Shown here piece after piece: positions 30,957 to 52,738 of a stretch of DNA of 54,566 bases. The translations under genes and the position numbers were made by a program. Within the stretch, counting starts at the first letter, position 1; each line of letters begins with the position of its first letter. This DNA comes from Vampirovibrionales bacterium (lineage in GTDB: Bacteria > Cyanobacteriota > Vampirovibrionia > Vampirovibrionales > JAJTHC01). The notes beneath the pieces were generated by a model. The model did no database searches and was not told the origin of the DNA. It worked only from the letters and a program-made list of their open reading frames with translations. The stretch spans positions 1 to 54,566 of the forward strand of contig JBIKUS010000001.1 of NCBI GenBank assembly GCA_044347425.1, in the 5' to 3' direction.

Positions 30957-31098
30957 GGGCGCTGGTAAGAGGCTAGCGAAAAATAACTTAATGTGCTAAA
31001 ATAGAGCTAAAGGTTCCCTTTTGCTGATAAGCACCCAAGGGGTTCTTCTTTAAGAGTTTTCTCTTAAAGGTAGGTAAGAGGGTCGTTTTTTAAACGAA

Positions 31099-31767: not shown

Positions 31768-31887
31768 AAAGGGTAACTAAGTTAGCCTTAACTGTCAATT
31801 CTTAATCACGTACAATCCTAGGGCATCGTTTACAGGTTACTTAAACGCAAGCCTCACCCTATTTTAACCCTATCTCTGAATCAGTTG

Positions 31888-32262
31888 CTAACCCTCTAAA
31901 TCAGCCAAGGTGGTTTCAATATGCCGAGCAATGGCGGGAATGACACTCTTTTGTGCATCATCTGGCATGGCTTGCAGCAACAGCATTGCCGAACGGAGAC
32001 TTTCATCAGCGTCAAACCAGCGGCGGCTGGCCACTTGTTGCTTTAAGGTTTCGGCGTGTTCTAGCGCGGCTTCTACACTGCTAGCGTCGGCTTGGTGGCT
32101 ACGGTGCAGGGCATCCAGTTGCTGATGCTCAATAATCACTTTAATAATGTTAATAGCCACTTGGGCATGGTAGCGGGTATCGGCTTGTTTTAACAGGGCT
32201 AACGCTTGCGAGAGTGCTGGGTCTCGGTCGTACCATCGGCTAATGAAAGGCTGGCTATTCAT
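31888..32262 (-). CDS. hypothetical helical protein
   Basis: 124-aa ORF with host-like composition. No motif recognised. Confidence 0.5.
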   Translation of the reverse strand: MNSQPFISRWYDRDPALSQALALLKQADTRYHAQVAINIIKVIIEHQQLDALHRSHQADASSVEAALEHAETLKQQVASRRWFDADESLRSAMLLLQAMPDDAQKSVIPAIARHIETTLADLEG

Positions 32263-39416: not shown

Positions 39417-39513
39417 TAGGCAATAAAAACCGATGAGAGGCGTTATAGGCATACTTGGGCGATGCTGTGCTACCCACGTGTGCTGTTACCTCGTTTTTTC
39501 AGGAGTTTTACTG
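39417..39513 (+). promoter_or_regulatory. conserved 5' region (copy 1) of a duplicated small-gene unit; contains a hairpin
   Basis: TAGGCAAT-N16-CGTTATAGGCATACTTGGGCGATGCTGTGCTACCCACGT...AGGAG. ACTTGGG (39453-59) pairs with CCCACGT (39473-79) with 1 mismatch. Confidence 0.5.
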
Positions 39514-39825
39514 ATGTTTTCGTCTGTTGCACACCCACCAAGGGTACAACCGCAAGCCGTTGTTGCTTCTCGCCCCGCTGGGTTTGGTAACAGAGAACAC
39601 ATACAAAACATCAAGGCCATCCTGCAAACCCTTGAAACCACTGCGCCAGAGGCACTAAAGGCTTTAAAAGATTTAACCCTTAAGCAAACCCCCATCCCCG
39701 AGGAACACAAACCTACGCTAGCCGATGCAGGGTTGATCTTCCCACAGGGACACAAACAGCCCTACACCATGAAACTTGGGGTAAAAACTGCGATTCACGA
39801 ACTGTATGCCGCTAGTCATAGGTAG
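39514..39825 (+). CDS. small hypothetical protein, paralogue A (103 aa)
   Basis: ATG 8 nt after AGGAG. The N-terminus MFSSV...VQPQAVVASRPAGFGN is shared with paralogue B. Confidence 0.55.
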   Translation: MFSSVAHPPRVQPQAVVASRPAGFGNREHIQNIKAILQTLETTAPEALKALKDLTLKQTPIPEEHKPTLADAGLIFPQGHKQPYTMKLGVKTAIHELYAASHR

Positions 39826-39921
39826 GCAATTGAGAGCCTTTAGGGACGTTATAGGCTTACTTGGGCGGTGCTGTGTTACCCAAGTATGCTTACGGCCTCG
39901 TTATTTTTAGGAGTTTTGCTC
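39823..39921 (+). promoter_or_regulatory. conserved 5' region (copy 2) of the duplicated unit; perfect 7-bp hairpin
   Basis: TAGGCAAT-N16-CGTTATAGGCTTACTTGGGCGGTGCTGTGTTACCCAAGT...AGGAG. ACTTGGG (39859-65) pairs with CCCAAGT (39879-85). Confidence 0.5.
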
Positions 39922-40326
39922 ATGTTGTCATCCATATCTTTTGCTAGCCCTGTTAGGTTTGCCCCACAAGCCCAAGCTAAGGTACAACCGCAAACCCTTG
40001 GTGTGGCACCTCGCCCCGCTAGTTTTGGTAATGCACAGAATCTTATTCTTGAGACTTTAAACCAATTAGTTACTGGTAATGAAGCCGATAAATCAGCTTT
40101 TGTAGCTCTTGTTCTCAAAGTGCGAGATATGGAACCTACTTGGAACTTATCAGCCTTAGGTGCAACCCTAATAGAAGGTATGCGTGCTAACATCACCTTA
40201 GAAAACAGAAAAATTCCTGATGCACAAGCTGCCACGCTTGAAAGATTCAGCTTAGTTGACCAATATGGTGTACCAAACTCCCCTGTAGTTGCAGTGGTTA
40301 AAGAGTTTTTTAATACAGCTCGCTAG
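39922..40326 (+). CDS. small hypothetical protein, paralogue B (134 aa)
   Basis: ATG 8 nt after AGGAG. The N-terminus MLSSI...VQPQTLGVAPRPASFGN is shared with paralogue A. Confidence 0.55.
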   Translation: MLSSISFASPVRFAPQAQAKVQPQTLGVAPRPASFGNAQNLILETLNQLVTGNEADKSAFVALVLKVRDMEPTWNLSALGATLIEGMRANITLENRKIPDAQAATLERFSLVDQYGVPNSPVVAVVKEFFNTAR

Positions 40327-42063: not shown

Positions 42064-43680
42064 TTACATCCCAAATTTACGGCGTACCATGCCTAGCACT
42101 TGCGTAGCGTGACTGAGCCTTAGCACCACACTCATCCCCGCATAACTGGCCACGCCTAGGGTAAAGGCGGTTAGCATCCCTACCCATCCTTGGCCTAACC
42201 CTGCGGGGCTGCACCACCACGCCCACAACAGGCCAGCAGGTAGGCAAGCTAAGGCCATACGGCCAGCCTCCACCCCCAACGCCCCAAAGGGGATAACCGT
42301 GGTATGACGACGCACCAACAGCATCAGCCAGCCCAAGTTAATAAGCGTGACCAGCGTAATGGAGGCTGTAATGCCCCCAACCCCTAAGTTGAGCCATACG
42401 CCCCCTACCAGCAAGGTATTGAGCAACCACTTAACGCCAATCGCACTTACCCCCACCAGCAATGGCGTTTTAGAATCGTTATAGGCATAAAAGACTCGGG
42501 TTAGGGTGTCTCGTAAAAAGTAGGGGAGCATACTGGCGAGTTGAAACCACACCGCCCACGCTACCATGGCCGTATGTTCAGGCTTAAAGCTGCCATGCTC
42601 AAACACCAACCGTATCACGGGTTCCACCCAAAAAAAGGCGAAAATCATGATCGGCATGGTCACCCACCACAACGCCCCTACGCCTTGCTGTACCAATCGG
42701 CCTAGCTCTTCGGGTTGTTGTCGCTCTACCGCCTCAGCCAGCCGAGGGAATAACGGCACCAGTAGGGCGGTTTGCAGCACGCCAATGGGTAGTTGCATCA
42801 GGCGGTTGGCCAAAGTGACGGCCGACCAGCCGCCTTCGGGTAAGTGGTGCGTAAAGCCCATATCCACAAAGGTAAGGGCTTGGCCAATCGTCGTCCCCAC
42901 CATAGCGGGGAAGAGTAAGCCCATCATGGCGTTAAATTCGGGCGAGCGCACCTGCGAGAGGGTGGGACGAAGGGTAAAGCCGTGCTTAAAATAGTCGGGT
43001 AGTTGTAAGGCCACTTGCAACACCCCGCCCACCAACGTACCCATGGCCAGCAGTAAACCCGCATCATCAGCGGGGAAGGCCAACAGACCCACAATCATGG
43101 CAATGCTCAGCATGGTGGGCGACAGAGCCGAGGAGGTAAACGCTTGTCTCACATTCAGCGCACCGTAAAAAATACCCACCAAACTGCCCAACCACACCAG
43201 CGGAGCCATAATGCGCAGTTGCGCAGCCGTTGCGGCCACGAGTGCGGGGTTGGCCTGCTCGCCCCCTAGCAACAGTTGAGACAGGGGCAAGGCCAACCAA
43301 AAAACGATACCCGCCAACACCATAAACACACCACTGGTAACGGTGGTGAGGGTAGCCGCCAAGGCCGTGGCTTGGGCTTGCCCCGCATCGGCTTGCTCTG
43401 GCGAAAAACGAGCAATAACCTTAGACAAGGCCGCCACCGTGGCCGTGTGAAAGGGCCCCCCAAGGCCACCTAACAACACAATGGAGGCTTGGGGCAATTG
43501 CACCGCAGCAAAGTAAGCATCTGTGGCAAGTGATGCACCGTACACGGTGACAATCAGCCAATCTCGGGCAAAGCCAAGCAGTTTACTTACCAACAGCAAC
43601 AAAGCCATCCACCCAACGGCTTTAGCTAAAGAGCCTTGAGCGGGCTTAGGCTTAGCCACGGTGACTGCTACGTCGCTCAT
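42064..43680 (-). CDS. murJ: lipid II flippase MurJ (MviN)
   Basis: SKLLGFARDWLIVTVYGASLATDAYFAA N-terminal signature and about 14 TM segments. Its start overlaps the lepB stop (ATGA). Confidence 0.9.
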   Translation of the reverse strand: MSDVAVTVAKPKPAQGSLAKAVGWMALLLLVSKLLGFARDWLIVTVYGASLATDAYFAAVQLPQASIVLLGGLGGPFHTATVAALSKVIARFSPEQADAGQAQATALAATLTTVTSGVFMVLAGIVFWLALPLSQLLLGGEQANPALVAATAAQLRIMAPLVWLGSLVGIFYGALNVRQAFTSSALSPTMLSIAMIVGLLAFPADDAGLLLAMGTLVGGVLQVALQLPDYFKHGFTLRPTLSQVRSPEFNAMMGLLFPAMVGTTIGQALTFVDMGFTHHLPEGGWSAVTLANRLMQLPIGVLQTALLVPLFPRLAEAVERQQPEELGRLVQQGVGALWWVTMPIMIFAFFWVEPVIRLVFEHGSFKPEHTAMVAWAVWFQLASMLPYFLRDTLTRVFYAYNDSKTPLLVGVSAIGVKWLLNTLLVGGVWLNLGVGGITASITLVTLINLGWLMLLVRRHTTVIPFGALGVEAGRMALACLPAGLLWAWWCSPAGLGQGWVGMLTAFTLGVASYAGMSVVLRLSHATQVLGMVRRKFGM

Positions 43681-44852
43681 TTGGGCAGGGTAGCCACGTC
43701 GGCTTGTGGCTCCAAGGTGCTAGGCGACAAGGTGAGTGTGCCGATGCGGTGGGCTGGCCATAGGCGTAGCCATGCTCGCCCCAGTACTCTGTCTTGGTGT
43801 ACCAGCCCCCAAAAGCGGCTGTCGTAGCTGTCGTTACGGTTGTCACCCATCATAAAATAATACCCCTTAGGTATTACGATAGGCCCACAGTAGCGTTTGG
43901 GCTGTTCTACGGTGCAGGTGGCGGCTATAGCATTGACGTAAGGCTCATTAACCCACTGGCCATTGCGTTTAATACCTTGGTTAGGGATGACTTGTAGTGT
44001 GTCGCCCTCTACTGCAATAAGGCGTTTAATGTAGGCCACATCCACCATCGAGTCTTTGTCGTTAACGAGGCCACTTAGCCCGCTCCACCGCAGTACACGG
44101 CTGATTGGGTCGGTGTTCAGTTGGGCAAACGGGGGGTAAAATACTAAAATGTCCCCCCGTTGGTAGGGTCGCCATAGGCGAGAGGGCTTTTCAACCAGTA
44201 CCCTGTCTTCAATTTGCAGGGCTGGCAGCATGGATTCGGAGGGGATGAGCCGGGGTTCCATTAGCCCTTGGCGTATGACGATTAAAAACAGGAGTAAAGT
44301 CAGTACAAATTCGGTCGCTTCCCACCCTACCCGTAGGCTACGGCGTAGCCACGGTTGGCGTTGCGTAGCTTGGTAGGCAGTAAGCAATTGGCTTTGGCTG
44401 GGCCACACCCCAGAGGCTAAGGGCGACAGGGCTTGCCCTTGGGCAGGTGCGCCACTGGCCAAGGCCATAACAACATGTAGTGGAGCCACTTTTACCACCG
44501 AAGGCGAAGACCCACTTGGGGCAAGGCTTTGGGCAAGCTGAGACGCTTGTTGTAAGACGGTGGGCAGCTCAGGCCAAAAAGCGGCCTCGGGGGGGGGGGG
44601 GGGGTGCTTGGGGGTAAAGCGTAGGCTCGCTGCCAGCTTGCGGGGCGAGGCTCCCGCATGGTGTAGCACCGCATCTAGCTGAGAAAAACGACGTGTATGG
44701 CGTAATAGCAACCACAACACCACCAACGTAGGTGGGTGTTGGGTATAACGTGGCCGTTGCGCTTCGGCTAGGGCATCTGCTACATCTAAGGTAAGCGGTG
44801 GCAGGGTTTCAGGGGTAGGGGGTGCTTGGCTCATCAGCTCAGTATCATACAA
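43677..44852 (-). CDS. lepB: signal peptidase I with a ~190-aa N-terminal extension (an alternative internal start at 44468 would give a standard-length LepB)
   Basis: IPSESMLPAL (catalytic Ser box), YIKRLIAVEGD (Lys box) and YFMMGDNRNDSYDSRFWG box. Confidence 0.8.
   Translation of the reverse strand: MYDTELMSQAPPTPETLPPLTLDVADALAEAQRPRYTQHPPTLVVLWLLLRHTRRFSQLDAVLHHAGASPRKLAASLRFTPKHPPPPPEAAFWPELPTVLQQASQLAQSLAPSGSSPSVVKVAPLHVVMALASGAPAQGQALSPLASGVWPSQSQLLTAYQATQRQPWLRRSLRVGWEATEFVLTLLLFLIVIRQGLMEPRLIPSESMLPALQIEDRVLVEKPSRLWRPYQRGDILVFYPPFAQLNTDPISRVLRWSGLSGLVNDKDSMVDVAYIKRLIAVEGDTLQVIPNQGIKRNGQWVNEPYVNAIAATCTVEQPKRYCGPIVIPKGYYFMMGDNRNDSYDSRFWGLVHQDRVLGRAWLRLWPAHRIGTLTLSPSTLEPQADVATLPK
44589..44604. 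repeat. 16-nt homopolymer (G16 on plus, C16 in the coding sense) inside the lepB N-terminal extension
   Basis: Counted directly. Encodes the PPPPP in ...TPKHPPPPPEAAF... Confidence 0.95.
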
Positions 44853-45987
44853 GGCTTACGCCAAGGCAACTTATCAACTCAGCAGCAGCAGCATGACCCG
44901 AGGCAAAGGCCGTTTGTACTTTACCTTCACCACCAAAGGCATCACCTGCCAGTACCAAGGGGGGTAAACCAGCCAAGCGCATACAGGGTGCTATCAGGGG
45001 GTTACGGGCAAAGGCGTAACGCCACAAATGCACCATGGTATGTTCGGGGTTGGGTAAGGGGTCGCCTGCCCATTGACCTAGGGCTTGCCATAACTGTTCG
45101 GCTACCCATGCTTTATCGGCCTCAAGGTGAGCGTCGCTCCAGTCGGGGCCAGCTTGCAAGGTAATCAGGTTGGCGGGATGAGGCCCTTTACCCCAACCTG
45201 CTTTAGTGGTGTTGTCGGCTACCCAGCCCAGCGTGGCTTTGGGGTTAAAGGCCTTAATCCCTTTGTAATAGCGTAGCTTTTCAAGGGGAGGAGTGAGGCT
45301 CGCTAGCATCGTCCAGCAAGCGGCATACTGCACAGAGGCCAATTGGGTGTGCTGTGCCTCCTCAAGCGTCAGTTGGCTTATGGCCAGTAAGGCCAAAGCT
45401 TGCGGTAGGGGGCAAGTTAACACCACAGCTTCGGCCAGCCATGGTTGTGTTAGGGGCGTTGCCCCTTCGGGGGTGACAGTTTCGCCCCACACTGCCCAGC
45501 CTTGAGCGGTAGGCTCAAGGCGAGTGATACGGGTGCTGAGGTGAAGCGTGGAAGCTGGCAAAGTGCTGGCCATAGCGTCGCATACGGTACGTATGCCCCC
45601 TTTGCCACCCACCCAACGGGTCGTTGGGCTAATGCGAGGGCTGCCCCAAGTGGTTTTGCCGTAATTGCCCGCATCCATTGAGCCTTTAAAACCGTCAAGG
45701 TGGTGCAGTTCTTCAAGCCAAGGCTTGACAATGCCTTGTTCGGCCAGCGTCTCTACAAAAGCGGCAAAGCCTAGGGCTTTGGCCGTAAGGTACTGCGCCC
45801 CATGGTCCCACCTAAGCTCGCCTTGACGACGGGTCGCCATACGGCCACCCACACCACGGCCTTTATCTACCACGGTAAGGCTAACGCCTTGTTGGTGTAG
45901 TTGGTTAGCAGCTGTAAGCCCTGCCATGCCAGCACCCACTATTAACACTTGGGTGGGGGACGAAGGCATGGCAGCAGATGGGGGCAT
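44845..45987 (-). CDS. FAD/NAD(P)-binding oxidoreductase (renalase/amine-oxidase-like)
   Basis: VLIVGAGMAGLTAANQL...VVDKGRGVGGRMATRR dinucleotide-binding motif. Its 3' end overlaps the lepB ORF start by 8 nt. Confidence 0.75.
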   Translation of the reverse strand: MPPSAAMPSSPTQVLIVGAGMAGLTAANQLHQQGVSLTVVDKGRGVGGRMATRRQGELRWDHGAQYLTAKALGFAAFVETLAEQGIVKPWLEELHHLDGFKGSMDAGNYGKTTWGSPRISPTTRWVGGKGGIRTVCDAMASTLPASTLHLSTRITRLEPTAQGWAVWGETVTPEGATPLTQPWLAEAVVLTCPLPQALALLAISQLTLEEAQHTQLASVQYAACWTMLASLTPPLEKLRYYKGIKAFNPKATLGWVADNTTKAGWGKGPHPANLITLQAGPDWSDAHLEADKAWVAEQLWQALGQWAGDPLPNPEHTMVHLWRYAFARNPLIAPCMRLAGLPPLVLAGDAFGGEGKVQTAFASGHAAAAELISCLGVSLV

Positions 45988-46062
45988 TACAGTGAATCTC
46001 GGCAGGTAACAAGCGACTAAAAACTTAGTATAGCATAAACCTTGGCCAGGGTAGGTGCCCTT

Positions 46063-46209
46063 TTATAAAGGGTTTCTGCCTTGAATAATACGTATCAACA
46101 CCGCTGCAACGGCTAACAACAGCAACACGTGAATCAACGAACCTAGCATGTGGGTGGTAGCACCTAACGCCCACAAAATAAACAAAATAACCGCAATGGT
46201 GTATAACAT
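46063..46209 (-). CDS. 48-aa small membrane protein of the lmo0937-like type (MLYTIAVILFILWALGATTHMLGSLIHVLLLLAVAAVLIRIIQGRNPL)
   Basis: ATG preceded by AAGGAG. Two-helix pattern typical of this very common small-protein family. Missed by the ORF track, which shows an out-of-frame 89-aa ORF instead. Confidence 0.7.
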   Translation of the reverse strand: MLYTIAVILFILWALGATTHMLGSLIHVLLLLAVAAVLIRIIQGRNPL

Positions 46210-46396
46210 CAGTCACTCCTTTAAAAGCAAAAGCCAAAGTAGGGCTACAAACACTGTACCCAAGGTGTGCTACCTTAGCACACGATTTTGGCAATAGCTA
46301 GTTAAGTTTTCTTTAACGCACGGGGAACTTAAGCAGGGGCTGTCTCGTCTCTACCAAGTAAAATGAGTTACCAACGCCTTCAAAAAACTGATATAG

Positions 46397-46410
46397 TAGC
46401 CCTAGGGCTA
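46397..46410. promoter_or_regulatory. perfect 14-bp palindrome TAGCCCTAGGGCTA overlapping a TATAGT -10-like hexamer (candidate operator)
   Basis: Read directly. Lies 41 nt upstream of the 46451 ATG. TTACCA-N18-TATAGT lies just upstream and overlaps it. Confidence 0.3.
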
Positions 46411-46450
46411 GTTGCCCTTACCTATCTAGCTTACTAAAGGAACCATCACC

Positions 46451-47284
46451 ATGTTATTTAGCTTTAGGTTAACTTATGTACTGGTGGCACTGCTAGCCAG
46501 TACTAGCTTACTGCCCCTTGCAGCACACGCTAACGATGCGTTTACGCCCATGGGGCAAGCTCAGCCTTCTTACAACCAGCCTTATGGTAACCAGTCCTCG
46601 GGTGGGTACGATGCTGGCTACACTACCCCCCTGCAAGGCCGTGTAGTCACCGTACCCATGGGGACGGTTATCAGCACGACGCTTAGCACCAACCTCTCCA
46701 GCGAATATGCTCGCCCTGGTGATAGGGTAACAGTGCAAGTAAGCCAGCCCGTGGTGTTTAACGGCCAGCTTGCTTTGCCAGCAGGCTCAACCGTTGAGGG
46801 GCAAGTGGCCAACGTGGTACCTAGCGGTATGGCGGGGCGCAATGGCTCGTTAGATATTAGGTTTAACATGGCTCGTTTGCCCAACGGGCAGAGCATACCC
46901 TTACAAGGGCGGGTGCAAACCAACGACGGTACGGGCGTGCTAACGGCAGGCACCACAGCCAACAGGTTTGGCCAAGCTGCCCTTAAAACAGGTGGCGGAG
47001 CCGCTGCTGGTGCGTTGTTAGGTACTGCCATGGGGCCCCTTTCGGGTGGGCAAGTAGGCAGGGGAGCCATTTACGGCACGGCCGTGGGTGCTGGCTTAGG
47101 CTTAGGGGCGGCTGCTTTAAGCAAAGGCAAACAGGTAGAGGTCACTTCAGGGTCGCCCATTAACATTGTGCTGGACCAACCTTTAATGCTAGGCGGTGGT
47201 ACGGGGATGCAAAACCAGCCCATGCAACAAGCCCAACCCAGTGGTGCTAGCTACGGTCAAGGTGGTTCGTTTTACGGCTACTAG
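46451..47284 (+). CDS. secreted protein with a TrbI/VirB10-like beta domain and a Gly-zipper segment
   Basis: Signal peptide ending LAAHA. VTVPMGTVISTTLSTNLSSEYARPGDRVTVQV...LPAGSTVEGQV...GRNGSLDIRFNMARLPNGQSIPL follows the TrbI/VirB10 C-domain pattern. Confidence 0.6.
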   Translation: MLFSFRLTYVLVALLASTSLLPLAAHANDAFTPMGQAQPSYNQPYGNQSSGGYDAGYTTPLQGRVVTVPMGTVISTTLSTNLSSEYARPGDRVTVQVSQPVVFNGQLALPAGSTVEGQVANVVPSGMAGRNGSLDIRFNMARLPNGQSIPLQGRVQTNDGTGVLTAGTTANRFGQAALKTGGGAAAGALLGTAMGPLSGGQVGRGAIYGTAVGAGLGLGAAALSKGKQVEVTSGSPINIVLDQPLMLGGGTGMQNQPMQQAQPSGASYGQGGSFYGY

Positions 47285-47307
47285 GGGCTTTGCTTAACTT
47301 TATGCCT

Positions 47308-47338
47308 AAGGGAGCGAAGTGACTGACCTCGCTCCCTT
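47308..47338. terminator. 10-bp hairpin between convergent genes (bidirectional terminator candidate)
   Basis: AAGGGAGCGA-N11-TCGCTCCCTT, located between the stops at 47284 (+) and 47371 (-). Confidence 0.6.
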
Positions 47339-47370
47339 GGGTGTTTGAATACTTCAACGTAACGGTTGAC

Positions 47371-49128
47371 CTAGGCAGCAGCTGGCTCGGGTTCGGGCTT
47401 CACTTCTTCGGCGGGTGGAGCTTGTTCAGCAGGTGGGGCTTCGCTCGCTTCGGGGGCAGGCGTTGCTTCAGCGGCGGGGGTCTCTGCAGGAGGTGCTTCG
47501 GCCTCAGCTTTGGCTTTTTCGGCAGCAGCAGCAGCTTGCTCATTGGCAACGTCGGCTTTGGCCTGTGCTACTTCGCCTTCAACCACGGTCTCCGTCGTTT
47601 CGGCGGTATCGGTAGCACTGGCGGCTTGGGTAGCTGTGGTATCAGCGGTATCGGCTGTGCTTTTAGCTTGGTCAGCTTTAGCCTCGGCGGCTACCTCTTG
47701 CGTTGTGTCTGCGGGAGGAGGCGTGGCTTCTGTTTCTGTTGTTTCTGTCGAGGCTGCCACGGCTTCGGTAGAGGCTTCCTCATCGTCAGCCACTTCAATA
47801 AAGGTGCCATCAGTTTCTAGCGTAACCATTTGCCCACCAACGGCTACTTGGTACTTACCGTCGTCTGTGCGTTCAATCACCACGTCCTCACTATCTACGG
47901 GTGTAGGTGGTGGGGTGGGAGCAGCAGCGGCGGCATTAGCTTCGGCGGCAGCGGCCGTTGCGGCGGCAGCAGCGGCTTCAGCGGCAGCGGCAGCGGTGTT
48001 AGCACGAGCTTCGGCAGCGGCCGTTGCTGCTTTAGCGGCGGCTAAATCAGCCTCTACCTTAGACAGTCTTGCTTCAGCACTTTCAACACGTTCTTCGGTC
48101 GAAGGTTCGGCAGGCGTGTCTACTTCATCATCTGTACCCGTGGCTGGTGTAGGTGTGGTGGTGGCACCTGCATTGGTTGTATTACCAGCATCATCAGCTT
48201 CCTCGGTAGGGGCAACATCGGCCGTACCACCAGTACCATTGGCTGCACCAGCGTCATCAGCTGCGTCAGCACCATCGGTTGCCCCAGCGTCATCAGCTCC
48301 ATCGGCACCATCGGCTGCTCCAGCGTCATCAGCTCCATCGGCACCATCGGCTGCTCCAGCGTCATCAGCTCCATCAGCACTATCGGCTGCACCAGCGTCA
48401 TCAGCTGCGTCGGCACCATCGGCTGCACCAGCGTCATCAGCTCCGTCGGCACCATCGGCTGCACCAGCGTCACCTGCATTATTATTGTTGTTAGCAGCCC
48501 CCGCATTATTATTATTATTGTTGGCTCTACCAGGCGATGCCATAATAACTTGGTTGCCTAAGCCACCAGCGGCTCCTGTACCAAGCACTTGGGTACCTAA
48601 ACCGCCACCTAATTGGTTAAGGTTTAACATACCACTGTTGCCGCCGAGCATCATCAAAAAGGGCAGTAGTGGGCCAAGCATACCCAATAGTCCGCCTTGG
48701 CCACCCATGATGCCAAACATGCCGTTGGTAGTAGTACCACCAGTTAATGTGTTGCCAAAGCCAAGGCCAGTATTGCCAAGTAAGTTTCGTTCAATTTCGG
48801 CGGCACGGGTACCAAAAAAGCCCCCCGCCCCAAAACCAAAATTAGAGCCTACACCCAAGCCCAAGGGGGCATCATTAAGGGTTGTACTACCTACACCTGT
48901 GCCAAACGTACTAAATGCCTCTGGGCCAAGCGGAATGGTGGTATTAAACAGGGCTGCATTTTGCTGCACACCTAAGGGGTCAGTCGTCCCCCCTATACCC
49001 GTTGCTGGGGGCAAAAAAGCTAGCTCTTGAAAGTTGGTAGCTTGGGCGGTTGCGTTAGGTAAATTAAAGGCCTGCGCTGCTAGTGCAGGGTCAAGAGCAA
49101 ATGTGCGAAAGTCAGGAGCGAATGACAT
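47371..49128 (-). CDS. 585-aa low-complexity protein (FG/GLFG-like Gly-rich region, poly-Asn, acidic DGAD repeats, Ala-rich helix, small beta module, Pro/Ala/Glu tail)
   Basis: ATG at 49128 with AAGGTG upstream. Uninterrupted 1758-nt frame. The convergent terminator sits just past its stop. The antisense 506-aa ORF has only a TTG start. Confidence 0.6.
   Translation of the reverse strand: MSFAPDFRTFALDPALAAQAFNLPNATAQATNFQELAFLPPATGIGGTTDPLGVQQNAALFNTTIPLGPEAFSTFGTGVGSTTLNDAPLGLGVGSNFGFGAGGFFGTRAAEIERNLLGNTGLGFGNTLTGGTTTNGMFGIMGGQGGLLGMLGPLLPFLMMLGGNSGMLNLNQLGGGLGTQVLGTGAAGGLGNQVIMASPGRANNNNNNAGAANNNNNAGDAGAADGADGADDAGAADGADAADDAGAADSADGADDAGAADGADGADDAGAADGADGADDAGATDGADAADDAGAANGTGGTADVAPTEEADDAGNTTNAGATTTPTPATGTDDEVDTPAEPSTEERVESAEARLSKVEADLAAAKAATAAAEARANTAAAAAEAAAAAATAAAAEANAAAAAPTPPPTPVDSEDVVIERTDDGKYQVAVGGQMVTLETDGTFIEVADDEEASTEAVAASTETTETEATPPPADTTQEVAAEAKADQAKSTADTADTTATQAASATDTAETTETVVEGEVAQAKADVANEQAAAAAEKAKAEAEAPPAETPAAEATPAPEASEAPPAEQAPPAEEVKPEPEPAAA
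48241..48472. repeat. 36-bp tandem repeat, about 6.4 copies (coding; 12-aa unit DGADGADDAGAA on the minus strand)
   Basis: Units at 48241, 48277, 48313, 48349, 48385 and 48421, plus a partial unit. 1-4 substitutions per unit. Confidence 0.95.
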
Positions 49129-49450
49129 AGGATAGTGTCACCTTAAGAGATGGGGTAAAGTGCTACACAGGCAAGTTAAGCTAAAGCGTGCAACTTATGT
49201 TGACAGGGCAGAGAGTTGAGTGTTTTGAGAAAAGCGAGAGAGGGAAGGAGGTATTGCGTTAGGTAGACAGAGTAAGCTTTGAAGCAACCTACACCACTTA
49301 CACTTAAGAGTATAGCACAACGACTTATTTTTTAAATATACTTATTATATTATTTACACTCTGTAACAACAGCAAAACAACGCTAAAGGAGTCTTGATAG
49401 TAAGATTGCCCACCGTCTCCACCCACCCCTGTAGTATAGCAGCACAAGGG

Positions 49451-49479
49451 TTGTCATCTTTTTTAAACCATGGTATAGT
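49451..49479 (+). promoter_or_regulatory. sigma70-type promoter candidate for the ilvB leader
   Basis: TTGTCA (49451-56), a 17-nt spacer, then TGgTATAGT (extended -10, hexamer at 49474-79). Confidence 0.55.
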
Positions 49480-49567
49480 GCAAAAACTAAGGTTAGGTGT
49501 TGTTTTGACACCAACCTAAGTACTTGCGTATTTTTTAACCTTGTTATCTGCCCACAGAGACGATACC

Positions 49568-49675
49568 ATGACACGCCAAGCCTTTTTAACCACACCTGTC
49601 GTTTTGCAGCTTGCCCCTGTGTCTTTTGTCGTCCTTAGCCTCGTCCTTATTGGCCTTGCCGGTGGGGTTAGCTAA
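49568..49675 (+). CDS. 35-aa Val/Leu-rich leader peptide candidate (MTRQAFLTTPVVLQLAPVSFVVLSLVLIGLAGGVS)
   Basis: 15 of 35 residues are Val/Leu/Ile. Lies between the promoter and terminator upstream of ilvB. Its 3' end carries the antiterminator arm. Confidence 0.55.
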   Translation: MTRQAFLTTPVVLQLAPVSFVVLSLVLIGLAGGVS

Positions 49676-49705
49676 GCTGCAGTAACGCAACATTAAGCTC
49701 AACAC

Positions 49706-49738
49706 TCACCGGCTAGCACAAGCGGCCGGTGATTTTTT
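49706..49738 (+). terminator. rho-independent terminator (attenuator) upstream of ilvB
   Basis: TCACCGGC-N11-GCCGGTGA, an 8-bp stem followed by TTTTTT (49733-38), 170 nt upstream of the ilvB ATG. Confidence 0.8.
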
Positions 49739-49908
49739 GTTTAAACACTTACAGTTATTTTTTGGAGATTGACCCCTTTATGCTGTCACAACGCCCCAAG
49801 CTCACCCAGTTTGTTACTAGCCCCCAGGTACATGGTGTACCTAGCCGAGGCGGTTGCATCATGCAGCCACAACCCACAGCATAACCCGTTTTGAAAGGAT
49901 TTTTCGCC

Positions 49909-51771
49909 ATGATGATGATGGCCATCGCCACTCGCCCCAACGCCCAAACCAACCGTATTTCACCAGCTTATGCTGCCCCTGCCGCTTTGGCGCAACCCGC
50001 CAACATGGCTAACCCCATGGCCAGCCCTCCTCAAGCCCAAGCACTTTGCGCCCACGACATGTCTGGGGCGAAAATTTTTTGCCAAGCTTTGGTTGATTCT
50101 GGTGTGACAGACGTGTTTGGCTACCCTGGTGGCGTTATCTTGCCCATCTATGACGCTTTGGCCGACTATCCACAGTTAAAACACTACCTTGTTCGCCATG
50201 AACAAGGCGCCACCCACATGGCCGAAGGCTACGCCAAAAGTACAGGCAAGCCAGGCGTGGTACTGGTGACCAGTGGGCCTGGGGCTACCAACATCGTCAC
50301 AGGCGTGGCCAATGCCTACTACGATTCTACCCCGCTGGTGGTGTTTACTGGCAACGTACCTACCCACATGTTAGGTAATGATGCCTTTCAAGAAGCGGAT
50401 ATTTTAAGCATTACCCGCGCCTGCACCAAACACAACATTATTGTGCGCGACGTTAAAGACCTATGCCGTAGTATTAAAGAAGCCTTCCACGTGGCGACTA
50501 CTGGCCGCCCTGGCCCTGTTGTGGTGGATTTACCCAAAGACGTGATTACGGCCATGGCCACCTACAATTTTGACGCTACTGAGTGCAACTTACCCGCCTA
50601 TAACCCCGCCCCTGCCCCTGTGCAACCCGCCGATATTGACGAATTACTGGCCTTGTTGGCCGAAGCCAAGCAACCCGTTATTTTAGCAGGCGGTGGCGTG
50701 GTCAACAGCGGAGCTAACGCTGAATTGCTGGCCTTTGCCGAACACTTTAATCTGCCCGTGGCCTCGTCGTTAATGGGGTTGGGGGGCTTTCCCTCTCGGC
50801 ACCCCTTATTTATGGGCTTTGCGGGTATGCACGGTATGTACTGGGCTAACATTGCTATTGCCAAGGCTGATTTAGTGGTAGTGATTGGCAACCGCCTGAA
50901 CGAACGCCAAACAGGCAAGGCCGACCGCTTTGCTCGTAACGCCAAAATAGTGCATATTGACTTAGACCCCAGTAACTTGGGCAAAAACGTGCCAGCCTTC
51001 TTACCCATAGCGGGCGACGTTAAAGAGATTCTGCAACACACCCTGTCGCAAGCCGACGTTTGCCCCCACGATTTTACCGACGCTTTGGCCAGCCGAGCTG
51101 CATGGTTGGCTCAAATTGAGGCCATGAAACGCCGTAAGCCCATGCCTATCCACAGTGGGCAAGGGTGCATGACCCCTCAATACGCCATTGAGCGTGTGAT
51201 GGCAGCCCTGCCCGCTGACAACGCTTTTGTCACCACCGAAGTAGGCCAACACCAAATGTGGACGGCGCAACGCTTCAACATTGACCGCCCCCGTAGCTTC
51301 GTCACCAGTGGCGGGTTGGGGACAATGGGCTTTGGCTTCCCCGCTGCTATTGGCATACAAGTGGCTCACCCCACCGCTACCGTGGTGGATATTGCGGGCG
51401 ATGGTAGCTTCCAGATGACCTTGCAAGAGCTGGCCACCGCTGCCGACTACAAACTGCCTGTTAAAGTGGTGATTATCAACAACAGCCGCTTGGGTATGAT
51501 TAGGCAATGGCAAGATAAAATGTACGGCCGTCAAAGCGAAGCTACCATGGGCAGCCCCGACTATGTACTGCTGGCCAAGGCCTTTGGGGGCGAGGGGTTT
51601 GTAGTAGAGCGTGCCGAAGATGCCGATGCCGTTTTAGCCCAAGCCATGGCCATAACAGATAGACCCGTGATTGTGGATATGCGTGTGGCCGAAACTTGCG
51701 ACGTGTACCCATGGGTACCTGCAGGCAGTGGCAACGAAGAGATGCTAAACGACACACCCCCCACCCCCTAG
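49909..51771 (+). CDS. ilvB: acetolactate synthase (acetohydroxyacid synthase) large subunit
   Basis: GAKIFCQALVDSGVTDVFGYPGGVILPIYDAL and the TPP motif GDGSFQMTLQELAT...NN. ATG at 49909 follows AAAGGA. Confidence 0.95.
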   Translation: MMMMAIATRPNAQTNRISPAYAAPAALAQPANMANPMASPPQAQALCAHDMSGAKIFCQALVDSGVTDVFGYPGGVILPIYDALADYPQLKHYLVRHEQGATHMAEGYAKSTGKPGVVLVTSGPGATNIVTGVANAYYDSTPLVVFTGNVPTHMLGNDAFQEADILSITRACTKHNIIVRDVKDLCRSIKEAFHVATTGRPGPVVVDLPKDVITAMATYNFDATECNLPAYNPAPAPVQPADIDELLALLAEAKQPVILAGGGVVNSGANAELLAFAEHFNLPVASSLMGLGGFPSRHPLFMGFAGMHGMYWANIAIAKADLVVVIGNRLNERQTGKADRFARNAKIVHIDLDPSNLGKNVPAFLPIAGDVKEILQHTLSQADVCPHDFTDALASRAAWLAQIEAMKRRKPMPIHSGQGCMTPQYAIERVMAALPADNAFVTTEVGQHQMWTAQRFNIDRPRSFVTSGGLGTMGFGFPAAIGIQVAHPTATVVDIAGDGSFQMTLQELATAADYKLPVKVVIINNSRLGMIRQWQDKMYGRQSEATMGSPDYVLLAKAFGGEGFVVERAEDADAVLAQAMAITDRPVIVDMRVAETCDVYPWVPAGSGNEEMLNDTPPTP

Positions 51772-51785
51772 CTTGTATGGGGTGC

Positions 51786-52417
51786 TTATTTAAACAAGTC
51801 TAAGTAGGCTACTTCACGACCAGCTATATAGTCGGGGCTAAAAGTGCCAGGTTTTATACCAGCATAACGATAATACGTTTCAATTTGGTTACCTTTATTA
51901 AACCAATAAATAACTATTTTGTTTTGATAAAGAAAATGGCCGTGGTGTACGCTGCCACCGCCATGGTTATCATAAGGTCCTAGGATCATTGCCCCACCTG
52001 TGTTGAGTTCAATGACATAAAATGTCGGCTGGTATTTACCGCAATCGGGTTGCGTATCGTTAGGTACACAGGCCAGTTTGTAGTTGAGGTTGGCTAACAA
52101 ATAGTGGTAGGTGGTCATCAATGTTGAGCTATGGTTTATAGCCCCTGTTTGCCAGCCATTGTACATTGCCTGCTGAAAGGTAGCAAAGGTATCTTTCAAT
52201 ACCGCGTTACTCTGGGTTTCTTCAATACCATAAAGCACCTTGGGGATGGTAAAAGTAGCAATTAGCCCAATGATGCTCAGCGTAACCAGCAATTCTGCTA
52301 GGGTAAAGCCCCTTTTTGGGCTATACTTTTGCTTGAGGCTTGAGGCTTGAGGCTTGAGGCTTGAGGCTTGAGGCTTGAGGCTTGAGGCTTGAGGCTTGAG
52401 GCTTGAGGCTTGATCAT
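51786..52417 (-). pseudogene. type IV pilin-like (prepilin N-methylation motif) gene whose ATG is out of frame because of an 11-copy heptanucleotide tract (phase-OFF state)
   Basis: Pilin frame reads QKYSPKRG/FTLAELLVTLSIIGLIATFTIPK plus a Cys pair (CVPNDTQPDC). The ATG at 52417 is 107 nt from the Gly codon. Confidence 0.8.
52332..52408. repeat. heptanucleotide repeat, 11 perfect copies (CTTGAGG on plus, CCTCAAG in the coding sense)
   Basis: Counted directly: units start at 52332, 52339 and so on to 52402, followed by a partial CTTGA. Confidence 0.98.
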
Positions 52418-52467
52418 AGGATAGTAAGCTCCTGTAAAATTTTTGTAAAGGCGTTTTGCATAGGGTT

Positions 52468-52613
52468 TAGGGCGTGTCACCAGTTAGGCGAAATACGATG
52501 AATTCAAGGAAAAAAGAACGGCTTTTGAGGCGTGTAGACAGAACTACATAACGAAAAAACGGCTCTTTTTGACACAGAAGACACGGATTGCAGCCAACTG
52601 ATGACACGCCCTA
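52468..52613. mobile_element. 146-bp element bounded by 18-bp imperfect inverted repeats (MITE-like, inverton-like or structured RNA)
   Basis: TAGGGCGTGTCACCAGTT (52468-85) matches the reverse complement of 52596-52613 at 17 of 18 positions. GTT flanks both ends. Confidence 0.5.
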
Positions 52614-52738
52614 GTTTGATATCGGTAAAAGTTAGCCTAACCTTAAGAGGTAAAGACAGTATCGTAACAATTATGGCCAACAATCAAGCCCTTGCTTTAT
52701 AGCCGTGCTTTGCTTTTAATACATAGGTAACCTATCCT

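What the first reader, a model, noticed from the sequence alone, without database searches (positions are those of the whole stretch)
47371..49128. 585-aa modular low-complexity protein: FG/GLFG-like Gly-rich region, poly-Asn, tandem acidic DGAD repeats and a poly-Ala helix
Module order on the minus strand:
- About 190 aa, Gly/Leu/Phe/Asn/Thr-rich with no signal peptide, carrying motifs such as NFGFGAGGFFG, GLGFGN, MFGIMGGQGGLLGMLGPLLPFLMMLGG and LGGGLGTQVLGTG. This is reminiscent of cohesive FG-type disordered domains.
- NNNNNNAGAANNNNNAG.
- About 6.4 copies of a 12-aa unit, DGADGADDAGAA, encoded by a 36-bp DNA tandem repeat (48241-48472).
- A Thr-rich linker.
- An Ala/Glu-rich probable coiled coil (EERVESAEARLSKVEADLAAAKAATAAAEARANTAAAAAEAAAAAATAAAAEANAAAAA).
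- A short beta-looking module (VVIERTDDGKYQVAVGGQMVTLETDGTFIEV).
- A long acidic Ala/Thr/Glu/Pro tail.

I cannot assign it to any family. The architecture suggests a scaffold, condensate-forming or surface-fibril protein. Because of the DNA repeat, its length is likely polymorphic or collapsed in assembly.
Basis: seen in the sequence. Interest (0 to 1): 0.65.

Follow-up and report, generated by a model that had tools for sequence, protein, structure and literature searches.

The report
Orphan repeat protein with variable acidic tail
This is a real gene for a largely disordered, very acidic protein found only in one freshwater lineage related to Vampirovibrio; its acidic repeat block changes length between near-identical strains, and its function is still unknown.

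Summary
ORF 47371-49128 (-) encodes the 585-aa modular protein, and the 36-bp x 6.6 repeat (48235-48472) is the strongest tandem repeat in the window. The minus strand is the coding strand: it scores like real genes on codon usage, and dN/dS against a homologue is 0.35. The 506-aa plus-strand ORF is a shadow.

No Pfam, NCBIfam, PHROG, PADLOC or PDB match exists. The protein is not a singleton, though:
- The uncharged Gly/Leu/Thr/Asn/Phe-rich N-terminal ~200 aa is a conserved domain. It recurs in a 196-aa metagenomic protein (60% identity).
- It also recurs in a tandem paralogue (48%) that lies just upstream of this gene in some strains and is absent from the window.
- Both short relatives end in a Gly/Asp tail terminating in ...DGDC.
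- The paralogue's tail is (Gly-Ala-Asp)n and passes the Pfam Collagen threshold.
- The window's 12-aa unit is four degenerated copies of that 9-bp triplet repeat. Its Gly periodicity is broken, so it is no longer collagen-like.

Metagenome contigs carry 573-, 585- (two versions) and 609-aa alleles that differ only in the repeat block. This confirms the predicted length polymorphism.

My best reading is a non-enzymatic assembly or spacer protein: a sticky conserved head, a length-variable polyanionic tail and Ala-rich helices. Its location in the cell is unresolved. Interest is moderate.

The parts
47371..49128 (-). Complete 585-aa coding sequence, the long form of the family
   Evidence: It is an ATG-to-stop ORF. 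Its codon score matches real genes only in this frame. The identical gene is called in at least 10 independent metagenome contigs.
48529..49128 (-). Conserved N-terminal domain, aa 1-200. It is almost uncharged and rich in Gly, Leu, Thr, Asn and Phe. It contains a G90-G94-G98-G102-G106 glycine zipper.
   Evidence: It is 60% identical to P0001 and 48% identical to the tandem paralogue. dN/dS is 0.35. AlphaFold2 gives no confident fold.
48760..48837 (-). Invariant core motif GFGAGGFFGTRAAEIERNLLGNTGLG, aa 98-123. It holds the domain's only cluster of charged residues (R108, E111, E113, R114).
   Evidence: The motif is invariant in the three-way alignment. The DNA here is 90% identical between paralogues that are otherwise 48% identical as proteins. 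AlphaFold2 predicts a low-confidence helix at 104-120.
48472..48528 (-). Poly-Asn junction RANNNNNNAGAANNNNNAG, aa 201-219
   Evidence: Read from the translation. P0001 has a short NNN at the same junction.
48235..48471 (-). Acidic 12-aa repeat (DGADGADDAGAA-type) encoded by a 36-bp x 6.6 VNTR. It is the only part of the gene that varies between strains.
   Evidence: TRF detects the array. Alleles carry 5.6, 6.6 and 8.6 units, plus a variant unit ATNSADAADDAG. The unit equals four 9-mers related to the paralogue's GCCGATGGA unit. It does not match Pfam Collagen.
48100..48234 (-). Thr/Pro/Asp-rich acidic linker, aa 299-343
   Evidence: Composition. pLDDT is below 50.
47926..48099 (-). Ala-rich helix 1, aa 344-401. 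It could form a coiled coil of the alanine-rich type.
   Evidence: AlphaFold2 predicts a helix with pLDDT 85-92. All four large hydrophobic residues, and 15 of 17 a/d positions, fall in one heptad register.
47806..47925 (-). Pro-rich hinge plus a small three-strand beta module, aa 402-441
   Evidence: AlphaFold2 predicts strands at 417-420, 426-430 and 433-437 with pLDDT only 54-63. No homologue or family was found.
47500..47805 (-). Acidic Thr/Glu linker (aa 442-474) and Ala/Thr/Glu-rich helix 2 (aa 475-543)
   Evidence: AlphaFold2 predicts a helix at 475-543 with pLDDT up to 95. Composition. The heptad pattern is weaker than in helix 1.
47371..47499 (-). Ala/Pro/Glu-rich C-terminal tail (aa 544-585) and stop codon
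   Evidence: Composition is A 33%, P 29%, E 24%. pLDDT is below 50.
49138..49144 (-). Shine-Dalgarno-like AAGGTGA, 9 nt upstream of the ATG
   Evidence: Read directly from the sequence.
49309..49336 (-). Promoter-like site TTTAAA-16-TATACT with TG (extended -10), about 180 nt upstream of the ATG
   Evidence: This is a consensus-scan match only. It lies inside the 233 bp that stay attached to the gene in both upstream haplotypes.
47305..47341 (.). Strong hairpin between the convergent genes, a probable two-way terminator
   Evidence: It has a 13-bp stem, -28.4 kcal/mol and z = -4.3. No U-run follows on the gene's strand.
47510..49030 (+). 506-aa Ala/Ser-rich antisense ORF. It is a shadow of the GC-rich repetitive codons and not a gene.
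   Evidence: All three plus-strand frames score negative on codon usage, and the synonymous-codon score is -0.32. It has no family match.

Best explanation
**What is shown**
- The locus is a genuine single-gene unit on the minus strand of a chromosome. The chromosome belongs to a flagellated bacterium that makes lipopolysaccharide, from a freshwater population. Its closest sequenced relative is Vampirovibrio chlorellavorus (class Vampirovibrionia).
- The gene encodes the long member of a very small, lineage-restricted protein family.
- The family has a conserved, nearly uncharged, hydrophobic Gly-rich head of about 190-200 aa. A Gly/Asp(/Ala) acidic tail built from slippage-prone short DNA repeats follows it.
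- In the window's gene the ancestral (Gly-Ala-Asp)n triplet repeat has become a 36-bp higher-order repeat with broken Gly periodicity. About 290 further residues have been added: two long Ala-rich helices, a mini beta module and a Pro/Glu tail.

**What is inferred about how it works**
- The protein is non-enzymatic and behaves like a block copolymer.
- The conserved head, with its RAAEIERNLLGNTGLG helix and glycine zipper, is the specific binding or self-association module.
- The polyanionic tail (net charge -72) is an extended, disordered spacer or 'bristle'. It keeps the sticky head soluble and sets a distance. Its length changes quickly between strains through repeat slippage.
- The Ala-rich helices probably add oligomerisation.

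**What is unresolved**
- Location in the cell is not settled. I lean slightly towards an envelope- or surface-associated structure exported by a route other than Sec, rather than a cytoplasmic scaffold.
For: **Real gene on the minus strand**
- Codon log-odds is 0.395 in minus frame 0 only, against 0.22-0.51 for real genes.
- dN/dS against P0001 is 0.35, with differences at codon positions 1/2/3 of 41/28/64.
- An SD-like site, a promoter-like site and a terminator hairpin flank the ORF.
- Independent pipelines call the same gene in at least 10 contigs.

**Chromosomal and taxonomic setting**
- The window also carries ClpB, SMC, LpxK, FlgK, MurJ, LepB and IlvB.
- The best IlvB match is a V. chlorellavorus MAG at 65%, followed by Gastranaerophilales at about 51%.

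**Family membership**
- P0001 was the only hit among 5.8 billion clusters.
- It was also the only hit among 1.84 billion representatives read exhaustively with a profile.
- A tandem paralogue turns up by tblastn in L010, L012 and L013.
- The three sequences share an invariant core.

**Tail evolution and variability**
- The paralogue's tail reaches 38-43 bits on Pfam Collagen, above the cut-off of 27.2.
- The 36-bp unit equals four 9-mers matching the paralogue's unit at 9/9, 6/9, 6/9 and 8/9 positions.
- Four alleles of the window gene differ only in the repeat. Non-repeat codons carry 0-1 synonymous change.
- The paralogue's 9-bp array also varies, 15.9 against 18.9 copies.

**Block-copolymer physics**
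- The head has GRAVY +0.33 and net charge -5. The rest has net charge -72.
- AlphaFold2 predicts disorder apart from the two helices.

**Precedent**
- Burkholderia Bucl proteins carry single-type, proline-free GXY triplets. Their repeat copy number varies between strains, their non-collagenous parts are conserved, and many lack a signal sequence (PMC4565658).
Against: - No experiment and no detectable homology to a characterised protein supports any function.
- The family is known from only three sequences, so AlphaFold2 had almost no alignment. Its 'disorder' for the head is uninformative.
- There is no signal peptide, transmembrane segment or sorting motif (read from the sequence; the highest 19-residue hydropathy is 1.55). 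No secretion genes lie nearby. This argues against a surface location.
- Repeat-length variation may be neutral slippage and carry no function.
- Some of the variation could be short-read assembly error. One contig, L015, breaks inside the array.
- The gene has no conserved operon partner.
Confidence: 0.4

Rival explanations
1. It is a surface fibre or adhesin exported by a route other than Sec, or a protein directed at prey. Under this model the head anchors or binds and the variable acidic tail projects outward. Repeat-length and paralogue presence/absence variation would be driven by phage or prey interactions in a Vampirovibrio-like predator. This overlaps the best explanation but commits to an extracellular role.
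For: - In-frame repeat variation stands out among strains that otherwise differ by 0-1 synonymous change in the gene.
- The tandem paralogue is present in some strains and absent in others.
- A pilin-like gene 3 kb away switches on and off by a 7-bp repeat in the same population. Variable surface genes therefore exist here.
- Collagen-like repeat proteins are often surface adhesins with polymorphic repeats (PMC4565658, PMC6460258).
- V. chlorellavorus attaches to its prey through a pad of unknown composition (PMC4451040).
- The composition fits: no Cys, Trp or His, with Thr/Pro linkers and a Pro/Glu tail.
Against: - There is no signal peptide, lipobox, transmembrane segment or known C-terminal sorting domain.
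- No secretion-system genes are adjacent. The neighbour's VirB10 similarity is only 17.9 bits against a cut-off of 220.
- No homologue exists at the matching position in the V. chlorellavorus MAG.
Confidence: 0.25
2. It is a cytoplasmic scaffold or condensate-forming protein. Under this model the uncharged Gly/Phe/Leu/Asn head drives cohesive self-association as FG domains do. The acidic region would tune solubility, comparable to PopZ- or HubP-type organisers.
For: - Having no export signal places it in the cytoplasm by default.
- The head has low charge and is Gly- and Phe-rich. The remainder is strongly acidic and predicted to be disordered, with helices that could oligomerise.
Against: - The head has only 6 FG dipeptides in 200 aa and no GLFG.
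- What is conserved is a specific 26-residue motif, not FG spacing.
- GRAVY of +0.33 is more hydrophobic than typical soluble disordered regions.
- The protein matches no PopZ, FimV or HubP family.
- A polyanion with net charge -72 would not condense on its own without counter-ions.
Confidence: 0.2
3. It is a membrane-active or pore-forming head in the manner of glycine-zipper proteins or bacteriocins. Under this model the acidic tail acts as a solubility or targeting appendage, and nearby small hydrophobic ORFs could serve as immunity proteins.
For: - Five consecutive GxxxG motifs run from G90 to G106.
- A hydrophobic Gly/Leu/Met stretch at 145-163 has a 19-residue hydropathy of 1.55.
- Small hydrophobic ORFs lie nearby: a 38-aa ORF upstream and a 48-aa DUF5670 protein downstream.
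- The short relatives are small, at about 196-220 aa.
Against: - The hydrophobic stretch is not conserved. P0001 has a 4-residue deletion and polar substitutions there.
- There is no double-glycine leader, and no transporter or peptidase gene nearby.
- No bacteriocin, microcin or colicin family matched in Pfam or NCBIfam, or in the exhaustive profile search.
Confidence: 0.08
4. It is a cation-binding (Ca2+ or another metal) or mineral-associated acidic protein. Under this model the poly-Asp/Gly/Ala repeats chelate cations and the hydrophobic Gly/Leu head anchors the protein to a surface. Mms6-type or shell-matrix proteins would be the analogy.
For: - The repeat block is 32% Asp with no basic residue.
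- The whole-protein pI is about 4.
- All three family members pair the hydrophobic Gly-rich head with an Asp/Gly tail.
Against: - The protein has no EF-hand, RTX or DxDxDG spacing and no HemolysinCabind hit.
- The genomic context shows no link to biomineralisation.
- The idea rests on composition alone.
Confidence: 0.05
5. It is not a functional gene: either a spurious ORF in GC-rich repetitive DNA, or the plus-strand 506-aa ORF is the real gene.
For: - Long ORFs run on both strands through the repeat region.
- The synonymous-codon score of the repeat block alone is poor, at -0.25.
Against: - All plus-strand frames score negative and minus frame 0 scores like real genes in every segment.
- A diverged homologue shows purifying selection.
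- All length variants stay in frame in the minus reading.
Confidence: 0.02

Closest known systems
Bacterial collagen-like repeat proteins with simple, proline-free GXY triplets (Burkholderia Bucl family; also BclA of Bacillus/Clostridioides and Lcl of Legionella)
   Same: - A conserved non-repeat domain sits next to a short-unit repeat whose copy number differs between strains.
- The repeat is dominated by one triplet type, for example GAN, GAS or GTS in Bucl proteins (PMC4565658).
- Many Bucl proteins also lack a signal sequence.
- The tandem paralogue's (GAD)n tail passes the Pfam Collagen threshold.
   Different: - The window's protein fails the defining Gly-every-third-residue rule and does not match PF01391.
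- Its repeats carry only negative charge and no proline, so a stable triple helix is unlikely.
- The N-terminal domain is unrelated to any domain of a known collagen-like protein.
- No trimerisation domain is recognisable.
   Same: Both have a low-charge composition rich in Gly, Phe, Leu, Asn and Thr, with FG and GFG motifs and no confidently predicted fold.
   Different: - It has 6 FG dipeptides in 200 aa, clustered at residues 75-138, and no GLFG. By my own knowledge FG domains carry roughly one FG per 10-20 residues.
- Conservation sits in a specific charged helix motif and not in the FG spacing.
- No homology is detectable.
Acidic disordered polar organisers (PopZ; HubP/FimV acidic repeats)
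   Same: Both combine a strongly acidic Pro/Glu/Asp-rich disordered region with helical oligomerisation segments. HubP-type proteins also have repeat-built acidic regions (my own knowledge).
   Different: - No Pfam or NCBIfam match to these families was found.
- The protein lacks the LysM domain and transmembrane segment of HubP/FimV.
- Its conserved module is N-terminal, hydrophobic and Gly-rich, which those proteins do not have.
Mms6/MamG/MamD-type proteins (Leu-Gly-rich hydrophobic region plus acidic tail)
   Same: Both join a Gly/Leu-rich hydrophobic block to an acidic C-terminal block (my own knowledge). The resemblance is in composition only.
   Different: - No sequence similarity was found.
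- The genomic context has no magnetosome or mineralisation genes.
- The head here is not a clear transmembrane segment.

Membership tests
Collagen triple-helix repeat proteins (Pfam PF01391) | Uninterrupted Gly-X-Y triplets (Gly at every third residue) over many triplets, scoring above the Pfam cut-off | tested here: not met
   - The window protein has no Pfam hit at E <= 0.1.
- Its unit reads ADG-ADD-AGA-ADG, so Gly spacing is 3, 5, 4.
- The upstream paralogue in L010/L012/L013 does meet this, at 38-43 bits against a cut-off of 27.2.
Collagen triple-helix repeat proteins (Pfam PF01391) | Repeat copy number varies between strains while the non-repeat domain is conserved | tested here: met
   - Alleles of 573, 585a, 585b and 609 aa differ only in the repeat block.
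- The paralogue carries 15.9 against 18.9 copies of its 9-bp unit.
Collagen triple-helix repeat proteins (Pfam PF01391) | Stabilising residues (Pro in X/Y positions, or opposite-charge pairs) and actual triple-helix formation | tested here: not met
   - The repeat block is A 43%, D 32%, G 22%, with no Pro and no Lys or Arg.
- Triple-helix formation itself cannot be tested with these tools.
FG-nucleoporin-like cohesive domain | Dense, regularly spaced FG motifs separated by uncharged polar spacers; little conservation outside the FG motifs | tested here: not met
   - The head has 6 FG dipeptides in 200 aa and no GLFG.
- The invariant block is RAAEIERNLLGNTGLG, not FG spacing.
FG-nucleoporin-like cohesive domain | Forms cohesive hydrogels or condensates | not testable with these tools
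   This needs purified protein.
RTX / type I secretion substrates | GGxGxDxUx nonapeptide repeats (HemolysinCabind) ahead of a C-terminal secretion signal, with an ABC/MFP/TolC system nearby | tested here: not met
   - No Pfam or NCBIfam hit was found.
- The repeat has no hydrophobic position.
- No transporter genes lie in the flanks.
Sec/Tat-exported proteins or lipoproteins | N-terminal signal peptide (basic n-region plus hydrophobic h-region), twin-arginine motif or lipobox Cys | tested here: not met
   - This was judged by reading the sequence only. The N-terminus MSFAPDFRTFALDPALAAQAF has Asp at positions 6 and 13 and no hydrophobic core.
- The protein has no Cys.
- No signal-peptide predictor was available.
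PopZ / FimV-HubP polar organisers | PopZ C-terminal oligomerisation domain, or LysM plus a transmembrane segment plus the FimV C-terminal motif | tested here: not met
   No Pfam or NCBIfam family matched at E <= 0.1.
New family defined here (Gly-rich head plus Asp/Gly tail) | Head domain with the GFG.GGFF..RAAEIERNLLGNTGLG core, followed by an acidic Gly/Asp(/Ala) low-complexity tail | tested here: met
   - The three-way alignment gives 62% and 47% identity to the window protein, with an invariant core.
- The window protein lacks the ...DGDC C-terminus of the two short members because its tail is extended by about 290 aa.

The most novel reading that the evidence does not exclude
The head-plus-acidic-tail proteins would be a previously unrecognised class of variable-length surface or attachment fibres. 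They would be specific to predatory Vampirovibrio-like bacteria and exported without a Sec signal, for example through the flagellar or type IV secretion apparatus. The conserved Gly-rich head would assemble or anchor. The (GAD)n-derived polyanionic tail would set reach or evade phage or prey recognition. Tandem paralogues and repeat slippage would provide population-level variation.
Probability: 0.12. Interest if true: 0.6.

Novelty: new variant of a known kind. Interest (0 to 1): 0.36.

Why it matters
- If the working model is right, this is a compact natural example of a bacterial 'block copolymer' protein. A short collagen-type triplet repeat has evolved into a non-collagen polyanionic spacer, and that spacer still mutates in length within a near-clonal wild population.
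- It defines a new sequence family (head domain plus Asp/Gly tail) in the poorly studied non-photosynthetic relatives of cyanobacteria, whose attachment and predation structures are of unknown composition.
- In practice, the 36-bp array and the paralogue's 9-bp array are ready-made strain-typing markers for this freshwater population.
- Without functional data it remains a hypothetical protein, so the immediate impact is modest.

Tried and rejected
**Searches that found nothing**
- The full-length protein search gave no hit. All 8000 candidate slots were used, so I infer that low-complexity words filled them. Splitting the protein recovered P0001.
- The C-terminal part, aa 405-532, has no homologue even at E <= 1.
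- A profile of the head found nothing further among 1.84 billion representatives, apart from P0001, which was itself in the query profile.
- The head profile found nothing in the PDB. The head, P0001 and the beta module gave no significant Pfam hit at E <= 10.
- NCBIfam, PHROGs and PADLOC gave nothing.
- IMG/VR viral contigs, GenBank phages and PLSDB plasmids gave nothing. A mobile or phage origin is therefore rejected.

**Genome and metagenome scans**
- The genome scan with the whole protein found nothing.
- The second genome scan, with IlvB, gave the taxonomic neighbourhood but no synteny.
- The metagenome scan with the head profile only re-found P0001's contig.

**Structure and RNA**
- AlphaFold2 on the head with a two-sequence alignment gave pLDDT 43. 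I did not run a fold search because the model is too poor to be meaningful.
- Rfam found nothing above noise in 45900-50100.

**Other dead ends**
- I tried to reach the far side of the paralogue through an exact look-up of IlvB. It failed because no identical product is on record.
- I considered and dropped an antifreeze-like Thr periodicity in helix 1. The Thr residues sit at 369, 378 and 391, which is not an 11-residue period.
- I considered an RTX or EF-hand Ca2+ site, a TM anchor at residues 145-163 (not conserved in P0001) and a FliK-type ruler. The ruler idea fell because no flagellar hook-length (Flg_hook) domain was found.
Full report
**Observation**

- Tandem Repeats Finder reports a 36-bp unit, 6.6 copies and 92% matches at 48235-48472. 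This is the highest-scoring tandem repeat in the 54.5-kb window.
- Module composition:

| Part | Residues | Main features |
|---|---|---|
| Head | 1-200 | G 22%, L 14%, A 10%, T 10%, F 8%, N 8%; net charge -5; GRAVY +0.33 |
| Asn junction | 201-219 | Poly-Asn |
| Acidic repeat | 220-298 | A 43%, D 32%, G 22%; no basic residue |
| Remainder | 201-585 | Net charge -72 |
| Whole protein | 1-585 | Net charge -77; no Cys, Trp or His |

- AlphaFold2 without an alignment predicts confident long helices at 344-401 and 475-543. It predicts a weak three-strand sheet at 417-437 and low confidence elsewhere.
- In helix 1 all four large hydrophobic residues fall on a/d positions of one heptad register, and the remaining core positions are Ala. 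A coiled coil is therefore possible but unproven.

**Coding strand**

- I trained a codon model on 22 other genes of the window. Minus frame 0 scores 0.395 bits per codon, inside the range of real genes (0.22-0.51).
- All five other frames are negative in every segment, including the frame of the 506-aa plus-strand ORF 47510-49030.
- The N-terminal 180 alignable codons compared with a 60%-identical homologue give dN 0.216, dS 0.624 and dN/dS 0.35. Differences at codon positions 1/2/3 number 41/28/64.
- AAGGTGA lies 9 nt before the ATG. A promoter-like TTTAAA-16-TATACT with an extended -10 lies at 49336-49309. A 13-bp-stem hairpin (-28.4 kcal/mol, z = -4.3) follows the stop codon, between the two convergent genes.
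- The plus-strand ORF is a shadow ORF.

**Source organism**

- The window carries ClpB, dihydroorotase, SMC, LpxK and FlgK. It also carries LepB, IlvB and an amine-oxidase-like flavoprotein.
- Matching contigs add MurJ, PurH, MotB/OmpA, HemA, HemC and EF-P.
- This is chromosomal DNA of a flagellated bacterium that makes lipopolysaccharide.
- The best IlvB match among 185,579 species genomes is a Vampirovibrio chlorellavorus MAG at 65%. Gastranaerophilales and other Melainabacteria follow at about 50%.
- The organism is therefore probably a member of Vampirovibrionia with no close sequenced representative. This rests on one marker.

**Homology**

- Pfam, NCBIfam, PHROGs and PADLOC give nothing for the protein. 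The PDB gives nothing significant for the head profile or for the C-terminal 242 residues.
- The full-length search against 5.8 billion clusters returned nothing. I infer that low-complexity words filled the candidate list.
- The head alone found one protein, P0001: 196 aa, 60% identity over 99% of the query.
- An exhaustive HMMER profile search of 1.84 billion representatives found only that same cluster.
- P0001 is a complete small gene on two independent contigs, next to a restriction-specificity-like fragment. It ends ...ASPGNNNGGGDGGGGGGDGDC.
- The C-terminal 128-residue query found nothing, even at E <= 1.
- No relatives exist in viral contigs, phages or plasmids.

**A tandem paralogue**

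- tblastn of the head against all fetched loci found a second, 48%-identical copy. It lies directly upstream of the gene, on the same strand, in contigs L010, L012 (the same contig as L003) and L013.
- Its translation shows the head domain followed by (Asp-Gly-Ala)n and the terminus ...DGDC. This is the same ending as P0001.
- In the three-way alignment, GFG.GGFF..RAAEIERNLLGNTGLG is invariant.
- In DNA, 78 bp of this core are 90% identical between the paralogues. That suggests gene conversion or extreme constraint.
- Homology between these contigs and the window ends at window position 49361, 233 bp upstream of the ATG. In L012, 13 of the contig's 25 mismatches to the window fall within those 233 bp.
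- The window and several long contigs (L001, L006, L008, L011, L014) have IlvB there instead.
- Two upstream arrangements therefore coexist in the population.
- All three paralogue-bearing contigs stop within a few codons of each other inside the paralogue's head. The far side is unknown, and I could not reach it.

**Origin of the acidic repeat**

- The paralogue's tail is a 9-bp repeat. As protein it matches Pfam Collagen at 38-43 bits, above the cut-off of 27.2, because Gly occupies every third position.
- The window's 36-bp unit splits into four 9-mers: GCCGATGGA, GCTGATGAC, GCTGGTGCA and GCCGATGGT.
- These match the paralogue's unit GCCGATGGA at 9, 6, 6 and 8 of 9 positions and encode ADG-ADD-AGA-ADG.
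- The window's 12-aa repeat is thus a higher-order derivative of a (Gly-Ala-Asp)n triplet repeat in which the glycine periodicity has been lost. Accordingly the window protein does not match Collagen.

**Polymorphism**

- The gene's exact product occurs on 5 contigs, and the neighbour's product on more than 20.
- Aligned gene products show four alleles:

| Allele | Length | Contigs |
|---|---|---|
| Short | 573 aa | L006, L014 |
| 585a | 585 aa | window and five JGI samples |
| 585b (one unit replaced by ATNSADAADDAG) | 585 aa | L010, L013 |
| Long | 609 aa | L008 |

- Outside the repeat block the proteins are identical. The non-repeat codons differ by 0-1 synonymous change.
- The same alleles recur in independent samples and assemblers, and the variant unit cannot arise by simple collapse. 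Most of this variation is therefore real.
- One contig, L015, ends inside the array, so assembly limits remain a caveat.
- The paralogue's array also varies, 15.9 against 18.9 copies.

**Interpretation**

Shown:
- It is a real gene.
- It belongs to a tiny family defined by a conserved hydrophobic Gly-rich head plus an Asp/Gly tail.
- The tail is repeat-built and hypervariable.
- The window's member is a long form with about 290 extra residues, including two helices.

Inferred:
- The head is the specific binding or self-association module. It is under purifying selection, it has an invariant charged helix next to a G90-G106 glycine zipper, and it is too hydrophobic to be a typical soluble disordered region.
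- The polyanionic tail acts as an extended spacer or solubilising bristle of variable length.
- The Ala-rich helices may oligomerise.

Location in the cell is unresolved:
- The absence of a signal peptide, judged by reading the sequence only, favours the cytoplasm.
- Several features favour a surface role reached by a non-Sec route:
  - the hypervariable in-frame repeats;
  - the presence/absence variation of the paralogue;
  - the Thr/Pro and Pro/Glu linkers;
  - the lack of Cys;
  - the surface association typical of collagen-like repeat proteins (PMC4565658).
- V. chlorellavorus attaches to algae through a pad of unknown composition (PMC4451040). That is only a lead.

**Comparison with known families**

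- The nearest known kind is the bacterial collagen-like repeat proteins that have conserved non-collagenous domains and strain-variable repeats of a single triplet type. Bucl proteins with GAN, GAS or GTS triplets are examples, and many of them lack a signal sequence.
- The paralogue fits that description. The window protein does not, because it fails the Gly-X-Y rule.
- The FG-nucleoporin analogy fails on motif density and on the conservation pattern.
- RTX, PopZ and HubP memberships fail on their defining domains.

**Verdict**

- This is a new sequence family and a new variant of the kind 'conserved domain plus strain-variable repeat'. No function has been demonstrated.
- Interest is moderate, at about 0.36.

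Noticed in passing
window 51786-52417 (-), repeat at 52331-52413: A perfect 7-bp repeat (GCTTGAG x 11.9) lies inside the 5' coding region of a type IV prepilin-like gene (M-I-K-P-(QASSLKP)n...KRGFTLAELLV). With 11 full heptamers, as in the window, the ATG frame stops early. In contig L008, 12 heptamers keep the frame and give a 210-aa prepilin. In L001/L007 about 0.9 kb containing the gene (window 51760-52685) is replaced by about 190 bp. This looks like a pilin locus switched on and off by repeat slippage.
   Followed up: partly
L010 9159-9780, L012 7860-8537, L013 7675-8339 (upstream of the gene; absent from the window; break at window 49361): A tandem paralogue lies directly upstream of the gene in these contigs. 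It has a head domain 48% identical to the window's, a (Gly-Ala-Asp)n tail and a ...DGDC terminus. Its tail passes the Pfam Collagen threshold and its 9-bp repeat copy number varies between contigs. The contigs all end inside the paralogue, so its 5' end and upstream context are unknown.
   Followed up: partly
window 48761-48838 vs L010 9556-9633: A 78-bp patch encoding RAAEIERNLLGNTGLG is 90% identical in DNA between paralogues that are only 48% identical as proteins. This suggests gene conversion or unusual constraint on this stretch.
   Followed up: no
window 46451-47284 (+): The convergent 277-aa neighbour has an N-terminal signal-like hydrophobic stretch, a Gly-zipper-like C-terminal region and a Gln/Gly/Tyr-rich tail. 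Its 'TrbI/VirB10-like' label rests on only 17.9 bits against the NCBIfam cut-off of 220. It is identical in more than 20 contigs.
   Followed up: partly
window 43677-44852 (-): The signal peptidase I gene carries an N-terminal extension of about 175 aa ahead of the Peptidase_S26 domain (residues 178-365). Different pipelines call it as 385 aa or only 123 aa.
   Followed up: no
window ~39476-40319 vs L009 2759-3099: This is another difference between strains. About 840 bp in the window, holding two small ORFs of 130 and 152 aa, correspond to about 340 bp in contig L009.
   Followed up: no
window 31001-32000: G+C dips locally to 0.39 against about 0.53 for the window. The dip covers ORFs 31099-31767 and 31888-32262. 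It may be foreign DNA.
   Followed up: no
window 49129-49890: The 760-bp divergent intergenic region between the gene and ilvB has several features. It holds two TGCTATACT-containing promoter-like elements, near 49320 and 49449. Gene callers also report a small hydrophobic ORF of about 35-38 aa on either strand. Rfam finds no family there.
   Followed up: partly
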